Positions 24,914-29,566 of a stretch of 64,000 bases of DNA are shown one piece after another. The notes below the pieces were generated by a model. It saw only the letters and a program-made list of their open reading frames with translations, was not told the DNA's origin and searched no databases. Origin of the DNA: Ferruginibacter sp. (lineage in GTDB: Bacteria > Bacteroidota > Bacteroidia > Chitinophagales > Chitinophagaceae); NCBI GenBank assembly GCA_046597635.1, contig JBKJKD010000144.1:2905-66904 (forward strand), read 5' to 3'. Position 1 is the stretch's first letter; every line of letters begins with the position of its first letter. The translations under genes were made by a program, and so were the position numbers.

Positions 24914-26716
24914 ATGACCGCATCAGAATTTGCAGCCATAGCTGCTACCATACCTGTTTCTCCCGGCATCTATAAATATTTTGATGCCAACAATCAGCTC
25001 ATATACGTGGGCAAGGCAAAACATTTAAGAAAAAGGGTCAGCAGCTACTTCAATAAAAACCTGCAGAGTTATAAAACGGTAGAGCTTGTAAATAGGATAA
25101 TACGAATTGAGTTTACCATTGTAAACAGTGAACAGGATGCGTTCCTCCTCGAAAATTCCCTGATAAAAGAATACCAGCCGCTTTTTAACATCAACCTAAA
25201 AGACGATAAAACCTACCCCTATATCGTCGTAAAAAATGAACGCTTTCCGAGAGTGTTCTTCACTCGCAGAAAAATAAATGATGGCTCTCAATATTTTGGA
25301 CCCTACACATCTGTAGGAAAAGTGCGTGACTTGCTGGACGTTATTAAGCAGAATATTCCGTTACGTACCTGTAAACTCAACCTTACGGAAAATAATATTC
25401 AAAAGAATAAGTTCAAGGTATGCCTTGAATATCACCTGGGAAATTGTAAGGGTCCCTGTGAAGGTTTGCAAAGTACAGATGACTATAACCTCGGCATACA
25501 ACAGTTAAAGCATGTACTCAAGGGGAATGTGTACCCGGTAATGCAGCATTTTAAGACACTGGTTAAAGACCATGCAGAAAAAATGGAGTTTGAAAAAGCT
25601 TCCTTTTATCAATCCAAAATAGAGCACCTGCAACAATATCAATCTAAATCTGAAGTGGTAGGTACCAAAACAGGAACCATAGATGTGTTTAGCATGATTG
25701 AAGAAGGAGACCAGGCTTATGTAAATTACCTTGCAGTGAACAATGGCAGTATCATTCAGACAAAAACCATCACGCTTCAAAAAAAATTGGAGGAACCGCC
25801 TGCGGAAGTGCTCAGTTTTGCCGTAGCCCAGCTTAGACAAACTTTTGCAAGCGAAGCAACGGAAATCATTATTCCTTTTGAAATTGACTATCCTGCGGAG
25901 GGAATAATACTTACCGTACCAAGGAGCGGAGATAAAAAGAAGCTACTGGAACTGTCTCAAAAAAATGTAGACTATTTCAAAGAGGAGTTACATGCCAGGA
26001 AATTGCTGAAACTGGAAGATAAAACATCAGCCGAAAAAAGTAGGATACTGGTGCAATTGCAAAAAGACCTGTATTTAAAGGAACTACCCACTCATATTGA
26101 ATGCTTTGATAACTCCAACTTCCAGGGAAGCTACCCGGTGGCAGCAATGGTTTGCTTTATAAATGGCGAACCTAGTAAAAAAGACTATCGGCACTATAAT
26201 ATCAAAACGGTTTCGGGCATCAACGACTTTGCCTCCATGAGTGAAGTGGTTTTGCGGCGTTATCAGCGGCTAATTACCGAAGAAAAAGATTTACCCCAGC
26301 TTATCATCATAGACGGAGGCAAAGGGCAGCTAAGCGCCGCATTAGAAAGTATTGAACAACTAGGCCTCACCGGAAAAACAACCTTGGTAGGCTTGGCTAA
26401 AAATAAAGAAGAACTGTTTTTTTCCGGGGATACTTCTTCGTTGCAATTACCCTGGGATAGTGAAAGTCTGAAGTTGATCAGGCGCATCAGGGATGAAGTG
26501 CATCGATTTGGTATAACGTTTCACCGCAATAAGCGGAGCAAGGGCACTTTTGTAAATGAAATGGAAACCATTAAAGGCATTGGCAAACAAACCACTGATT
26601 TACTACTAAAAAAATACCGGTCAGTAGCACAAATAAAACAAAAAACGCTGGAGGAACTTACCTCAGACATAGGGAAAGACAAGGCAGAAAAACTCTTTAA
26701 AGGTCTCAATGGATAG
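24914..26716 (+). CDS. uvrC: Excinuclease ABC subunit C
   Basis: GIY-YIG (PGIYKY...IYVGKAK.L.KRVSSYF), IECFDNS, DGGKGQ, RIRDEVHRFG, C-terminal HhH. Confidence 0.98.
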   Translation: MTASEFAAIAATIPVSPGIYKYFDANNQLIYVGKAKHLRKRVSSYFNKNLQSYKTVELVNRIIRIEFTIVNSEQDAFLLENSLIKEYQPLFNINLKDDKTYPYIVVKNERFPRVFFTRRKINDGSQYFGPYTSVGKVRDLLDVIKQNIPLRTCKLNLTENNIQKNKFKVCLEYHLGNCKGPCEGLQSTDDYNLGIQQLKHVLKGNVYPVMQHFKTLVKDHAEKMEFEKASFYQSKIEHLQQYQSKSEVVGTKTGTIDVFSMIEEGDQAYVNYLAVNNGSIIQTKTITLQKKLEEPPAEVLSFAVAQLRQTFASEATEIIIPFEIDYPAEGIILTVPRSGDKKKLLELSQKNVDYFKEELHARKLLKLEDKTSAEKSRILVQLQKDLYLKELPTHIECFDNSNFQGSYPVAAMVCFINGEPSKKDYRHYNIKTVSGINDFASMSEVVLRRYQRLITEEKDLPQLIIIDGGKGQLSAALESIEQLGLTGKTTLVGLAKNKEELFFSGDTSSLQLPWDSESLKLIRRIRDEVHRFGITFHRNKRSKGTFVNEMETIKGIGKQTTDLLLKKYRSVAQIKQKTLEELTSDIGKDKAEKLFKGLNG

Positions 26717-26726
26717 TTGCGAACAT

Positions 26727-26785
26727 AAAAAAGGGCCAGGATAAAAATCCAGCCCCGTTTAAAATCCAATATCCTATGAAAAACC
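26727..26785 (-). ncRNA. Candidate sRNA copy 1 (~59 nt)
   Basis: Minus strand GGTTTTTCATAGGATATTGGATTTTAAACGGGGCTGGATTTTTATCCTGGCCC-T6; -7-like TAGTTTTA at 26797-26790. 5' end inferred. Confidence 0.6.
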
Positions 26786-26818
26786 GTTGTAAAACTAAGG
26801 GAAGTATTTTTAGCTACC

Positions 26819-26838
26819 TATACCATTTTTGTGGTATA
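26819..26838. promoter_or_regulatory. Palindromic operator TATACCA-N6-TGGTATA
   Basis: Perfect 7-bp arms, 22 nt from the -7-like box of copy 1. Confidence 0.65.
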
Positions 26839-26870
26839 AGTTAAATTTTGACATTCGTTGAGGATGGAGC

Positions 26871-26932
26871 AAAAAAAGGGGCCAGGATAAAAATCCAGCC
26901 CCGTTTTAAAATCCAATATCCTATGAAAAACC
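26871..26932 (-). ncRNA. Candidate sRNA copy 2 (~62 nt)
   Basis: Near-identical to copy 1, with one extra T, one extra C and a T7 tail; -7-like TAAGTTTA at 26944-26937. Confidence 0.6.
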
Positions 26933-26965
26933 GTGGTAAACTTAAGCCTATATATGTTATCTCTA

Positions 26966-26985
26966 TATACCCTAAAATGGGTATA
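26966..26985. promoter_or_regulatory. Palindromic operator TATACCC-N6-GGGTATA
   Basis: Perfect 7-bp arms, 22 nt from the -7-like box of copy 2. Confidence 0.65.
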
Positions 26986-26995
26986 TTTCAAATAA

Positions 26996-27023
26996 AAAGC
27001 CCTCTTCATCGGAAGAGGGCTTT
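26996..27023. terminator. Terminator of the gldKLMN operon
   Basis: aaagccctcttc-atcg-gaagagggcttt; T-tract on the minus strand. Confidence 0.85.
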
Positions 27024-27044
27024 AGAAAGTAGTTAGTTGAGGTA

Positions 27045-28064
27045 TTAGTAACTCCACAAATCCTGCTCGTAGTTAAATATCTTGTCCTTGATATTTTCAC
27101 CTTCCAGCAGCTGTAGAATAACATTTTCGTTTAACCCTTTATAATTTTTAATAAACTGATCGTACGGGTTGTCAATAGTGCTTTTTATAATTCTTCCGTA
27201 GAACATGCGACTTTCGAACAATTCCTCCCAACTCATGCGGGCTCCAAAGTTCTTGCCATTGTAAACTTCGTACTTAGCGAAAGTCTCCCTCATGTCAGGA
27301 TAATATACCCAAAATAATTCAGTTGGTCCAAGATCTACACCCTGGCTGGTAATAACATTTTTTACCGGGGCTATTCCTAGGATACGCATGAACAACCGTG
27401 AGCTCTCTTTATCAAAAATCACTTCTTCTTTTATCCTGAACTTGTAAAATGAGTCGAAACTGATATCGTTTACCATTTTTTTAGTCCCCGTTAGTTCCCC
27501 ATTTTCGTTGTAAATAGGAACATCAATAGGATCTCCAGATACCACTTTGGCTACTTCACCTTTGGTCATTGGTGTTGTAAAACGATCATCTACACTACTA
27601 AAAACAGTTACCACATCATCCTGTATGGCCTGGAGTAAAATAGAAATAAAGCGTTGGTTCCCATTATTCTCATCGGCTGAGTATCTAAACGGGAGGTTGA
27701 TCTTCTCTCTCGTATCAATTTCTCTCCAAACCTTATGGCGATAAACGGCGTCATCTGCACGCAGATGCTCATAGGCAAGTGGAGTTCTGTCTCTGAGTAC
27801 CGTGGTTTCTACTGCCTCATCGGGCCTAAGAGACTTCTTAACCGCTTTGAGGGGCAAACTGTCAATTGCTGGTGCTGCTACTGCTGCCATGGCGGCCACA
27901 GTATCCACGGTAGCAACCGTAGGCTTCACCTTTGCTTTTGTTTTTGTAGCGGTCGCCCTCTTCGTAGAAGTTCGCTTCTTTACTGGTTTTTTCTGAGCCA
28001 TGGCATCAGAGAAGCCACAGATCAAAATAGCCAGGAATAATAATTTAATAATACGCTTTTTCAT
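27045..28064 (-). CDS. gldN: Gliding motility / T9SS protein GldN
   Basis: YEHLRADD..Y...VWREIDTREKIN.PF, F.IKEE..FDKE.SR, LFWVYYPD.R, IFNYEQDLWSY; last gene of KLMN. Confidence 0.93.
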   Translation of the reverse strand: MKKRIIKLLFLAILICGFSDAMAQKKPVKKRTSTKRATATKTKAKVKPTVATVDTVAAMAAVAAPAIDSLPLKAVKKSLRPDEAVETTVLRDRTPLAYEHLRADDAVYRHKVWREIDTREKINLPFRYSADENNGNQRFISILLQAIQDDVVTVFSSVDDRFTTPMTKGEVAKVVSGDPIDVPIYNENGELTGTKKMVNDISFDSFYKFRIKEEVIFDKESSRLFMRILGIAPVKNVITSQGVDLGPTELFWVYYPDMRETFAKYEVYNGKNFGARMSWEELFESRMFYGRIIKSTIDNPYDQFIKNYKGLNENVILQLLEGENIKDKIFNYEQDLWSY

Positions 28065-28075
28065 ACCTGTAAGTT

Positions 28076-29566
28076 TTAATATAATGCGATTGATTTACCA
28101 TCTATCGACCTGGTTCCATCGGGACCAGAAACCTTGATGTTATCGAAAGAAATAACCGAGCCAGGACCACATCTTTGCATGTAAGTTTGAAGGCCAGCTA
28201 AGCTGTTACTTGTAATGGAAGCTGTCACAACATTAGGGAAATTAGCACCTGAGAAATAAACAGTAGCACTTACCACATTGTATTTAAGATCGAAATCGAA
28301 GGCCTCTAAATCGGCACGGCAGAATTGTTGCTGCTTAAATTCGATAGACGGCATTCTAATTTTACCAGACCCAACTTTAAAAACAGGATCAGGAATTCTC
28401 TTAACCCTGAAAGGGTAAGTACTGGGTTTACCATCCGGGCTAACCGTTATAGAAGCGGCACCGATTGCTGAAACCCTTACGGTTCTTTTTGATCCCGAAC
28501 CGCTAATGGTTCCTCCGCTCATGCTCACGGTAGTTTTATCCCAACCTGTAGGTGAACCGATAGTTACCGGGTTGTCCACACCAATATAGAATACGTTCAT
28601 TTTATCCAGCATTACAGCAGCACCACCGGGTGTACCTACCGTATACTTAATTGTGTAGGGCAGTGAGGCTTTTGTGCCATCAGGCTTAGTATAATTAACT
28701 ACTACTGCTACGCTTCTTTCTCCACCACCTTCGGCGGTAAATTCTTTTTCAGCGAAACCCTCGGCATTTACAGATACACCGGCACCACCAATAGAAATAA
28801 CAGGCTGCGCAGCAGTGCTATAAGCACCCACACCAGCAGTAATTTTCACTTTTTCGCCTGGCATTACATAGTTAGAACTTTGGCCAACAATAGCAGCGAA
28901 CTTATCGTAGATCACTTTAACTTCTCCAATCTTGTTGTGAGCAAAAGTTACCACCTGGTTTTCAGCGTTCTTGATATTGTTCTGCCACTTGCTAAGTAAA
29001 GTTATGGCAGCCACAGTAGGCATCATCCTAAAATTAGGCGTTGTTGCATCTTTATTTGGGTCCACTTCTACAGGTAGAGTTGTCTCAAATGCAGCCTTAA
29101 TCTCAGGGTCAATATTTAACATCGCAGCTCTGTAAGCCTTTAATTTTTCATCTAATTGTTTTCCTTTCTTGTCTGTGTCAAAAATGCGGGAAGTTGCATT
29201 CAAATCATCTTCCTTATATTTTTCCTTTCCACCTTCTTCAATAGTCAGGCCAGAAGCCGTTTTTAACTCTTTTTTTAGGCCATCAATATAAGCCATCATT
29301 TCTGAGGATAGCTTTTTGGCCTGCTCTGCTTTCGGTGCCCACTTCTCTGCATTAGCTTTCGAAGTAGGATCAGATAATTTAGCGGCCAAAGACTTGAATA
29401 AAGTTGCATTCGAAGCTTCTATATTGGTATTTGAGTTTACTAAACTTTTATCTACCGTTTTAAAAGCTTCTATAACTTCAGCCGATACGTTTAGCGCCAG
29501 GATAGCCGTCAACACCAAGTACATGATGTTGATCATCTTTTGCCGGGGCTCTTTTGGTAAAGACAT
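28076..29566 (-). CDS. gldM: Gliding motility / T9SS motor protein GldM
   Basis: MSLPKEPRQKMINIMYLVLTAILALNVSAEV, KMNVFYIGVDNP, FRVKRIPDP. Confidence 0.96.
   Translation of the reverse strand: MSLPKEPRQKMINIMYLVLTAILALNVSAEVIEAFKTVDKSLVNSNTNIEASNATLFKSLAAKLSDPTSKANAEKWAPKAEQAKKLSSEMMAYIDGLKKELKTASGLTIEEGGKEKYKEDDLNATSRIFDTDKKGKQLDEKLKAYRAAMLNIDPEIKAAFETTLPVEVDPNKDATTPNFRMMPTVAAITLLSKWQNNIKNAENQVVTFAHNKIGEVKVIYDKFAAIVGQSSNYVMPGEKVKITAGVGAYSTAAQPVISIGGAGVSVNAEGFAEKEFTAEGGGERSVAVVVNYTKPDGTKASLPYTIKYTVGTPGGAAVMLDKMNVFYIGVDNPVTIGSPTGWDKTTVSMSGGTISGSGSKRTVRVSAIGAASITVSPDGKPSTYPFRVKRIPDPVFKVGSGKIRMPSIEFKQQQFCRADLEAFDFDLKYNVVSATVYFSGANFPNVVTASITSNSLAGLQTYMQRCGPGSVISFDNIKVSGPDGTRSIDGKSIALY

What the first reader, a model, noticed from the sequence alone, without database searches (positions are those of the whole stretch)
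26727..26986. Tandem pair of autonomous sRNA-like genes hidden between uvrC and gldN
Seen: two ~70-bp near-identical blocks 147 bp apart. On the minus strand each reads operator palindrome, 22 nt, -7-like box (TAGTTTTA / TAAGTTTA), c(a/c)acGG, TTTTTCATAGGATATTGGATTTTAAA, hairpin GGGCTGGAT-TTTT-ATCCTGGCCC, T6-7. The hairpin needs a G-U pair and has a U-tract only on the minus strand, which fixes the orientation. Sequence between operator and -7 box has diverged while spacing and RNA body are kept, the pattern expected for selection on paralogous RNA genes rather than a neutral duplication. The gld operon terminator (26996-27023) insulates the pair. Established: Bacteroidota sigma-70 promoters use TAnnTTTG, and tandem paralogous sRNAs exist elsewhere (PrrF1/2). 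Inference: these are regulated ~60-nt trans-acting sRNAs; I do not recognise them as a named family.
Basis: partly seen in the sequence, partly recalled or inferred. Interest (0 to 1): 0.9.

Follow-up and report, generated by a model that had tools for sequence, protein, structure and literature searches.

The report
FopS-like sibling sRNA gene pair
The two repeated blocks are very likely two side-by-side genes for ~60-nt regulatory RNAs, members of a multi-copy family found throughout the Chitinophagaceae; the family has the same 5' pairing sequence as the FopS/GibS small RNAs of gut Bacteroides, so it looks like a new branch of a known kind of regulator, not a new kind.

Summary
Two ~75-nt blocks (26721-26800 and 26867-26946, RNA on the minus strand) lie 146/147 nt apart between uvrC and the gldKLMN operon.

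**Not an isolated duplication:**
- The genome has 8 strong copies plus one variant.
- Every same-genus genome sampled has 1-12 copies.
- A covariance model finds the family in 108 of 151 genera of the family, and almost nowhere else in the phylum.

**Features shared across 110 distinct copies:**
- The flanks are unrelated.
- A Bacteroidota -7 box (TAnnTT[T/C][G/A]) sits at a fixed distance.
- Conservation starts sharply at the predicted transcription start.
- A 23-nt 5' stretch is nearly invariant.
- The hairpin shows compensatory changes and a conserved U-G pair, followed by a U-tract.

The "operator" is also real. ATACC-N8-GGTAT occurs in 19 of 110 copies, always centred at -43 to -45, at the syntenic uvrC-gldN locus.

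**Relation to FopS/GibS:** the 5' seed (GGUUUUUCAUAGGAUAUUGGAUUU) nearly copies the R1 seed of B. thetaiotaomicron GibS/FopS (GUGUUUUUCAUAGUAUUAGAUUU). However, the Rfam FopS model scores these copies at only ~17 bits against a threshold of 56.

**Not shown:** Target prediction was inconclusive.

Verdict: a new variant of a known kind, of moderate-to-high interest.

The parts
26871..26932 (-). sRNA gene 1 (promoter-distal from uvrC), ~60-62 nt. Seed 26932-26904, hairpin 26902-26878, U-tract 26877-26871.
   Evidence: CM R1 gives 97 bits. Conservation begins at the GG. The hairpin covaries.
26727..26785 (-). sRNA gene 2, ~57-59 nt. Seed 26785-26758, hairpin 26756-26733, U-tract 26732-26727. The U-tract ends 11 nt from the uvrC stop codon.
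   Evidence: CM R1 gives 90.7 bits. The RNA body matches gene 1 except for one missing A in the A-run and a C-to-U change at the last position of the stem.
26937..26944 (-). -7 promoter box TAAGTTTA of gene 1
   Evidence: It occupies positions -13 to -6 of the 110-copy logo, where T/A/T/T reach 57-85%.
26790..26797 (-). -7 promoter box TAGTTTTA of gene 2
   Evidence: Same register as gene 1.
26966..26985 (.). Operator palindrome TATACCC-N6-GGGTATA of gene 1, centred at -44 and covering the place of the -33 element.
   Evidence: The same motif sits at the same position in 19 of 110 copies, and also in other genera.
26819..26838 (.). Operator palindrome TATACCA-N6-TGGTATA of gene 2, centred at -44.
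26996..27023 (-). Intrinsic terminator of the gldKLMN operon, upstream of the pair.
   Evidence: 12-bp perfect stem plus a T-run.
27045..28064 (-). gldN, the upstream neighbour on the same strand.
   Evidence: Pfam GldN, 227.7 bits. The synteny with the sRNA is conserved.
24914..26716 (+). uvrC, the convergent neighbour. The hairpin of sRNA gene 2 may also terminate it.
   Evidence: Pfam UvrC domains. Synteny.

Best explanation
The two blocks are two independently transcribed genes for ~60-nt small RNAs, arranged in tandem.

**Transcription of each gene**
- A Bacteroidota sigma-A type promoter drives each gene. The -7 box ends 4 nt before the conserved GG.
- In this pair the -33 element is replaced by a 20-bp palindrome, ATACC-N8-GGTAT, centred at about -44. 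This is the binding site of an unidentified dimeric transcription factor. Its position suggests an activator.
- Transcription starts within about 2 nt of the conserved GG and ends at an intrinsic terminator.

**The RNA**
- A largely unpaired 5' stretch of 28 nt, GGUUUUUCAUAGGAUAUUGGAUUUUAAA.
- The terminator hairpin.

**Family membership**
- The pair belongs to a multi-copy 'sibling' sRNA family of the Chitinophagaceae.
- The family's seed is a near copy of the R1/R1' seed of Bacteroides GibS/FopS.

**Proposed mechanism (inferred by analogy and from the anti-AUG seed CAU)**
- The RNAs pair with translation initiation regions of the type ...CCUAUGAAAAAC....
- These regions are typical of exported and outer-membrane protein mRNAs in organisms that do not use Shine-Dalgarno sequences.
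- Pairing blocks translation initiation.
- RRM-type RNA-binding proteins may modulate this.

**Shown versus inferred**
- Shown by comparative data: gene anatomy, strand, promoter, operator position, terminator and family distribution.
- Inferred: transcription itself, trans action, the targets and the protein partners.
For: **Copy number and spread**
- 8 strong copies plus 1 variant in this genome.
- All 25 same-genus genomes have 1-12 copies, often in tandem.
- 179 of 251 genomes and 108 of 151 genera of the family are positive.
- In a phylum sample, 18 of 22 family genomes are positive against 2 weak hits in about 379 others.
- Named hosts include Niabella aurantiaca, Foetidibacter luteolus, Longitalea arenae, Ferruginibacter, Flavisolibacter, Segetibacter and Sediminibacterium.

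**Promoter**
- Logo of 110 copies: -13 T 63%, -12 A 57%, -9 T 84%, -8 T 85%, and TTG at -36 to -34.
- Information content is near zero elsewhere upstream and rises sharply at -2/-1.

**Autonomy**
- The upstream gene is divergent at 3 of 8 loci.

**Terminator**
- 97.4% of cells are paired.
- 6 of 10 pairs change on both sides.
- 0 of 500 shuffles reach the observed covariation.
- Slid controls give 32-63% paired.
- The U-G pair is kept in 28 of 31 sequences.
- The U-tract is conserved.

**Operator**
- ATACC-N8-GGTAT (at most 1 mismatch) occurs in 19 of 110 copies, all centred at -43 to -45.
- All of these lie at the uvrC-gldN locus.
- The motif is also present in other genera.

**Seed identity with GibS/FopS**
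- Primers and probe in PMC11697453, supplementary file 5.
- RF04319 consensus.
- Bona fide FopS loci show the same spacing from the -7 box to the seed.

**FopS mechanism (from PMC11697453)**
- A 5' single-stranded seed plus a terminator.
- 14 copies with sigma-ABfr promoters.
- Translation of susC is blocked at the start codon.
- RbpB counteracts the repression.

**RNA-binding proteins in this genome**
- No Hfq or CsrA was found by tblastn, but three RRM proteins were.

**Predicted targets**
- The top 25 of 2407 translation initiation regions are 60% signal-peptide proteins against a 36% background (p=0.014). A reversed-seed control gives 40%.
- The top 10 include a SusC-like receptor and three proteins with weak T9SS sorting domains.
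Against:
- Genome-wide hybridisation energies of the seed, once the sRNA loci themselves are excluded, are no better than those of shuffled seeds.
- Only 1 of 24 SusC/TonB-type genes has a notable site. That site is conserved only in one 89%-identical relative, so it is uninformative.
- The gldN start region offers only 9 nt of pairing.
- The signal-peptide enrichment is modest, and it is expected from the AUGAAAAA complement alone.
- The Rfam FopS model gives ~17 bits against a gathering score of 56. Homology with FopS therefore rests on the seed and the architecture only.
- Near-invariance of 23 nt across more than 100 genera is more than a typical seed needs, and could point to a protein partner instead.
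Confidence: 0.72

Rival explanations
1. The RNAs are made, but they act mainly as decoys or sponges for an RNA-binding protein (for example the RRM proteins) and not by pairing with mRNAs. The nearly invariant 23 nt, with its two GGAU motifs (AUAGGAU AUUGGAU), would be the protein-binding platform.
For: - 23 nt are nearly invariant across 108 genera, which is longer than most seeds need.
- No target stands out above shuffled controls.
- Three RRM proteins are encoded.
- In B. thetaiotaomicron, RbpB binds the 5' part of FopS.
Against: - The stretch contains the same anti-start-codon seed that was shown experimentally to pair with susC mRNA in Bacteroides.
- No CsrA was found by tblastn, so a CsrB-type sponge is unlikely.
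- The two modes are not mutually exclusive.
Confidence: 0.12
2. The blocks are a dispersed repeat (REP/MITE-like) or reusable bidirectional-terminator cassettes, with no RNA product of their own.
For: - The element is multi-copy.
- At 6 of 8 loci the hairpin abuts the stop codon of a convergent gene (6-101 nt), so it probably also terminates that gene.
- A-tracts and T-tracts flank the stem.
Against: - There are no terminal inverted repeats or target duplications.
- The conserved block is asymmetric: seed plus hairpin.
- A -7 box at a fixed distance and an operator at a fixed position lie outside the repeated block.
- The U-G pair and the U-tract are specific to one strand.
- Orthologous positions such as uvrC-gldN are kept across genera, which indicates vertical inheritance and not mobility.
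- A terminator needs no nearly invariant 23-nt upstream sequence.
Confidence: 0.06
3. The nearly invariant 23 bp is a DNA-level site, for example the target of an RNA-guided dCas12f-sigmaE activator or a protein-binding box, and not an RNA seed.
For: - The extreme sequence invariance.
- RNA-guided transcription systems exist in Bacteroidota, including a Chitinophagaceae MAG (PMC13472631).
Against: - Outside the sRNA loci themselves, no stretch of 15 nt or more identical or complementary to the block exists in the 99%-complete genome, so no guide is present.
- Those systems need no promoter, yet a -7 box is conserved here.
- The strand-specific hairpin and U-tract would be left unexplained.
Confidence: 0.03
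4. The functional strand is the plus strand: a leader or small ORF starting at ATGAAAAACC (MKNR...).
For: An ATG lies inside the nearly invariant block, preceded by an A/T-rich stretch.
Against: - The downstream 'peptides' share nothing beyond MKN(R/H), and their stop positions are arbitrary (sequences, my translation).
- Conservation ends 7 nt after the ATG.
- On the plus strand the stem has a C-A mismatch where the minus strand has U-G.
- No -7 box is conserved on that side.
Confidence: 0.02

Closest known systems
FopS family (Rfam RF04319) and GibS (RF04182) of Bacteroides thetaiotaomicron (Ruttiger et al. 2025, PMC11697453)
   Same: - A multi-copy paralogous family (14 copies in B. thetaiotaomicron, 8-9 here).
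- Canonical -7 box promoter with the same distance to the RNA start.
- A single-stranded 5' seed followed directly by an intrinsic terminator.
- The seed begins GUUUUUCAUAG (11 nt identical) and continues UAUU(A/G)GAUUU.
- The host lacks Hfq and CsrA and has RRM proteins.
   Different: - A 2-nt insertion (GA) in the seed.
- A shorter linker (~60 nt against ~71 nt) and an unrelated hairpin sequence.
- RF04319 scores ~17 bits against a threshold of 56, and the model built here scores true FopS at 16-17.5 bits.
- A different order and habitat: Chitinophagaceae, mostly from environmental metagenomes by their record titles.
- A subset of copies, including this pair, carries a palindromic operator in place of the -33 box.
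- A conserved position between uvrC and gldN.
- SusC targeting is not demonstrated here.
Tandem or sibling sRNAs of Proteobacteria and Firmicutes (PrrF1/2, OmrA/B, Qrr1-5, LhrC1-5, streptococcal csRNAs); from my own knowledge
   Same: - Paralogues with identical seed regions and diverged promoters.
- Tandem arrangement (PrrF, OmrA/B, LhrC).
- csRNAs carry sequences complementary to the start codon region.
   Different: - No sequence relation.
- Those systems depend on Hfq or act in bacteria that use Shine-Dalgarno sequences.
- Their regulators (Fur, OmpR, LuxO, CiaR) are known. Here the regulator is unknown.
REP/BIME and MITE repeats
   Same: Short, multi-copy, intergenic, contain a hairpin, and often lie between convergent genes.
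   Different: - Promoter and operator at a fixed distance.
- A strand-specific terminator.
- No inverted termini.
- Syntenic conservation across genera.
Pedo-repair RNA motif (Pedobacter, located downstream of DNA-repair genes); recalled from memory
   Same: A Bacteroidota ncRNA candidate found next to DNA-repair genes (here uvrC).
   Different: No Rfam family other than chance-level hits to the gld terminator was found at E<=10 in 25500-28500.

Membership tests
FopS (RF04319) | Score at or above the Rfam gathering threshold (56 bits) | tested here: not met
   The best scores for the copies of this genome are 16.7-17.5 bits. No hit at E<=10 in the window region. Positive control: true FopS loci L263 and L264 score 78-81 bits.
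FopS (RF04319) | R1/R1' seed at the extreme 5' end | tested here: inconclusive
   GUUUUUCAUAG is identical, and UAUU(A/G)GAUUU follows after a 2-nt insertion. This is clearly similar but not the same sequence. Whether it reflects descent or convergence is undecided.
FopS (RF04319) | [quoted passage not shown] | tested here: met
   Fold. Covariation of the stem. Conserved U-tract.
FopS (RF04319) | Canonical Bacteroidota sigma-A promoter (-7 TAnnTTTG) | tested here: met
   Logo of 110 copies. In this pair the -33 element is replaced by the operator.
FopS (RF04319) | Multi-copy paralogous family within one genome | tested here: met
   8 copies plus 1 variant in this genome, and 1-16 per genome elsewhere.
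FopS (RF04319) | Bound by the RRM protein RbpB | not testable with these tools
   Only the presence of three RRM-type ORFs could be shown (tblastn).
FopS (RF04319) | Represses translation of SusC-like transporters by pairing at the start codon | tested here: inconclusive
   One SusC-like gene has a -23.8 kcal/mol site in its upstream region. No enrichment over shuffled seeds genome-wide. Modest enrichment of exported proteins among the top sites.
REP/MITE repeats | Scattered copies without promoter context, terminal inverted repeats or target-site duplications, and a variable genomic position between relatives | tested here: not met
   The -7 box and the operator are positionally fixed. The uvrC-gldN position is kept in 17 of 18 genus loci and in 21 loci of other genera.
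Any Rfam 15 family | A hit overlapping 26727-26986 | tested here: not met
   cmscan at E<=10 over 25500-28500 returned only chance-level hits on the gld terminator.

The most novel reading that the evidence does not exclude
The R1-type anti-start-codon seed is an ancient regulatory principle of the Bacteroidia, which do not use Shine-Dalgarno sequences, shared by Bacteroidales (GibS/FopS) and Chitinophagales. The syntenic pair downstream of gldKLMN is the RNA output of an unidentified dimeric transcription factor (site ATACC-N8-GGTAT at -44). The same factor also drives genes for T9SS cargo and other surface proteins. The sRNAs would then be the post-transcriptional arm of a secretion / cell-surface regulon.
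Probability: 0.2. Interest if true: 0.75.

Novelty: new variant of a known kind. Interest (0 to 1): 0.6.

Why it matters
FopS-type sibling sRNAs have so far been described only for gut Bacteroidaceae. If this finding holds, it has four consequences:
- The same seed and gene architecture exist in a different order of Bacteroidia, the Chitinophagaceae, whose genome records here come mostly from environmental metagenomes. They occur in more than 100 genera and are missed by the current Rfam model.
- It provides a covariance model and a list of cultured hosts for direct testing: Niabella aurantiaca DSM 17617, Foetidibacter luteolus YG09 and Longitalea arenae.
- It suggests that blocking start-codon regions of exported-protein mRNAs is an old solution in bacteria that do not use Shine-Dalgarno sequences.
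- It exposes an unassigned operator with a fixed promoter geometry, which could identify a new regulator linked to the gliding / type IX secretion locus.

Tried and rejected
- **Rfam scan of the region.** No family matched.
- **Exact complement search (10 nt or longer) across the genome.** Outside the sRNA loci the longest match is 14 nt, which is near chance. This also excludes a separate guide RNA matching the block.
- **Energy-based genome-wide target scan.** The best non-self sites reach -26.7 kcal/mol, while shuffled seeds reach -25 to -29. Several recurring hits proved to be antisense to histidine-kinase coding sequence, not mRNA.
- **SusC/TonB receptor start regions.** One site, C1:6966-6990, scored -23.8. 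The locus exists in only one other genome of 40, at 89% identity, so conservation is uninformative.
Only the generic UAUGAAAAA pairs, with -12 to -14 kcal/mol in three genomes.
- **Hfq and CsrA.** Not found by tblastn.
- **Plus-strand small ORF.** Rejected because the peptides are not conserved (sequences).
- **dCas12f target idea.** Rejected.
- **Broad seed pattern search over the phylum.** It was badly specified: it required G followed by four T, so it caught only the variant subfamily. Outside the family, hits equalled the backwards control.
- **Literature searches for Chitinophaga sRNAs or FopS outside Bacteroidaceae.** Nothing found.

Full report
**1. Observation**

The two blocks exist as described. 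The repeat finder reports two direct-repeat families with spacing 146/147 nt: 26721-26764 vs 26867-26910 at 91% identity, and 26753-26846 vs 26900-26993 at 71%. Each copy, read on the minus strand, contains the following:
- a palindrome TATACC-N8-GGTATA
- a 22-nt spacer that is only about 45% identical between the copies
- a -7-like box (TAAGTTTA or TAGTTTTA)
- four bases
- GGTTTTTCATAGGATATTGGATTTTAAA
- a hairpin with one U-G pair and a 1-nt bulge
- T6-7

Upstream of the pair sits a perfect 12-bp terminator for the gld operon, at 27023-26996. Pfam confirms uvrC (24914-26716, +). It also confirms gldN, gldM and gldL plus a GldK-like FGE-sulfatase gene on the minus strand.

**2. The pair belongs to a family**

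- BLAST of one block against the window's own genome (99% complete, 346 contigs) finds 8 strong copies.
- A covariance model built from them (R1) adds a ninth, divergent copy.
- All 25 same-genus genomes sampled have 1-12 copies, often two or three in a row. Sixteen other families of the order have essentially none.
- Within the GTDB family, 179 of 251 genomes and 108 of 151 genera are positive, at 80-97 bits.
- In a phylum-wide sample, 18 of 22 family genomes are positive, against 2 weak hits in about 379 others.
- An exact-pattern scan of named genomes shows the hosts are Chitinophagaceae: Niabella aurantiaca, Foetidibacter luteolus, Longitalea arenae, Ferruginibacter, Flavisolibacter, Segetibacter, Sediminibacterium, Hanamia, Puia and Lacibacter.

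**3. Anatomy supported by comparison**

I collected 110 distinct copies with flanks from the genus. The column-wise information content shows the following:
- It is near zero upstream except at -13 to -6. There T is 63%, A 57%, then T 84% and T 85%, followed by T/C and G/A. This is the Bacteroidota -7 box TAnnTTTG.
- There is a weaker TTG at -36 to -34.
- It jumps to nearly 2 bits at -1/0, stays there for 23 nt and remains high (0.6-1.4 bits) through the A-rich linker.
- It drops in the stem while pairing is kept, and rises again in the U-tract.

The stem is well supported:
- 97.4% of cells are paired.
- 6 of 10 pairs have changes on both sides.
- None of 500 shuffles reaches the observed covariation.
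- Slid controls give 32-63% paired.
- The U-G pair is kept in 28 of 31 distinct sequences, which fixes the strand.

In this genome the upstream gene is divergent at 3 of 8 loci, so the element cannot be a 3'UTR there. At 6 of 8 loci the downstream gene is convergent. The neighbouring genes have no common function. Across genera the stems differ completely in sequence while the 5' stretch stays the same.

**4. The operator**

ATACC-N8-GGTAT with at most one mismatch occurs upstream of 19 of the 110 copies. Every one is centred at -43 to -45, which covers the place of the -33 element. These copies all lie between uvrC and gldN. At that locus:
- 17 of 18 genus loci carry at least one copy.
- 14 carry the operator.
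- 4 carry a tandem pair.
- 21 loci from other genera also have a copy there, 6 of them with the operator.

Other paralogues carry other palindromes at other fixed positions: TGTAG-N8-CTACA at -62, and TGTGT-N7-ACACA at about -84.5. So the paralogues appear to be wired to different regulators. The window's pair is the old, syntenic, operator-A member.

**5. Relation to known RNAs**

Rfam 15 gives no hit on the blocks at E<=10. The literature led to the FopS family of Bacteroides thetaiotaomicron. That family has 14 paralogous sRNAs, canonical promoters and a single-stranded 5' seed plus terminator. It is bound by the RRM protein RbpB and blocks translation of SusC-like transporters at the start codon (PMC11697453).

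The seeds compare as follows:
- The primers and probe in that paper give the 5' ends GTGTTTTTCATAGTATTAG (FopS-10, GibS) and ...GTATTAGATTTAAGG.
- The Rfam consensus is GUGUUUUUCAUgGUAUUAGAUUUAAGG.
- The family here reads GGUUUUUCAUAGGAUAUUGGAUUUUAAA. That is 11 nt identical, then a 2-nt insertion, then UAUU(G/A)GAUUU, at the same distance from the -7 box.

Nevertheless RF04319 scores these copies at only ~17 bits against a threshold of 56, and my model scores true FopS loci at 16-17.5 bits. I therefore file it as a separate family that shares the seed and architecture of FopS/GibS. Common descent is likely, but convergence on the same target motif is not excluded.

**6. Mechanism**

The seed contains CAU flanked by U5 and AGG. 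Its complement, CCUAUGAAAAAC, looks like the start of an exported-protein mRNA (Met-Lys-Lys/Asn) in a phylum that does not use Shine-Dalgarno pairing. tblastn finds no Hfq or CsrA in the genome, but it has three RRM proteins. By analogy with FopS, I propose translational repression by pairing at or near start codons.

The tests I could run are weak:
- Genome-wide duplex energies do not exceed those of shuffled seeds.
- Among 2407 predicted translation initiation regions, the top 25 are 60% signal-peptide proteins against 36% overall (p=0.014). A reversed seed gives 40%.
- The top ten include a SusC-like receptor and three proteins with weak T9SS sorting domains.
- The SusC site could not be tested by conservation.
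- The gldN start offers only generic pairing.

A protein-sponge role is a real alternative, given how long the nearly invariant stretch is.

**7. Rivals rejected**

- REP/MITE or a plain terminator cassette: contradicted by the promoter and operator geometry, the strand-specific features and the synteny.
- A DNA target of an RNA-guided activator: no matching guide of 15 nt or more exists in the genome, and a promoter is present.
- A plus-strand small ORF: the peptides are not conserved.

**8. Limits**

- Copies from related genomes are not independent events, so the counts overstate the number of evolutionary observations. However, the unrelated flanks and the different stems show many independent lineages.
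- The transcription start is inferred to within about 2 nt.

**9. Verdict**

It is a new, Chitinophagaceae-wide variant of the FopS/GibS kind of sibling sRNA. The window holds the syntenic tandem pair, controlled by an unassigned operator.

Noticed in passing
own genome outside the window: C233:1861, C188:1291, C9:32968, and sites on C101, C326 and C284: The module ATACC-N8-GGTAT followed at 19-23 nt by a -7-like box occurs 18 times, against 3-10 times at other spacings. Besides the two sRNA promoters, it sits 60-95 nt upstream of genes for secreted proteins: two with T9SS sorting domains, an astacin protease, an FGE-sulfatase-like protein (with the perfect palindrome ATATACCCTTCGCAGGGTATAT) and a dockerin protein. 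It also precedes a TPR histidine kinase. This may be a regulon shared with the sRNA pair.
   Followed up: partly
own genome C125:9859-9925 (minus strand); L133 and about 25 other loci: A second subfamily with a variant seed, AGUUUUCAUAGGGUACGGAUUAAAAACGGGCC..., has its own -7 box and terminator. It occurs as one copy per genome in 17 of 22 family genomes and is also present in Niabella aurantiaca.
   Followed up: partly
own genome C247:5390-5459 and its orthologues (L026-L045): Other paralogues carry different palindromes at fixed positions: TGTAG-N8-CTACA centred at -62, and TGTGT-N7-ACACA centred at about -84.5. This suggests the siblings are regulated differently.
   Followed up: partly
L137, L139, L160, L179, L189, L208, L217, L229 (uvrC-gldN locus in other genera): In several other genera the syntenic copy has, instead of operator A, a (C)CTATAGG-type palindrome around -35, followed by the -7 box TGTATTTTCG.
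   Followed up: no
window 26727-26756, and 5 other loci of the genome: The sRNA terminators lie 6-101 nt from the stop codon of a convergent gene (11 nt after uvrC in the window). They are flanked by A-runs and T-runs, so they probably act as bidirectional terminators.
   Followed up: no
L263:1499-1567 and L264:1499-1571 (genomes G573 and G408, two other families of the class): Bona fide FopS (RF04319, 78-81 bits) occurs as single copies in two genomes outside the window's family. This shows the FopS model reaches beyond one genus but not to the Chitinophagaceae copies.
   Followed up: partly
own genome C227:22950-23040: One copy ends 20 nt before the ATG of the next gene on the same strand, and a perfect -7 box (TAGTTTTG) lies in between. 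That gene would therefore have a very short leader right behind the sRNA terminator.
   Followed up: no
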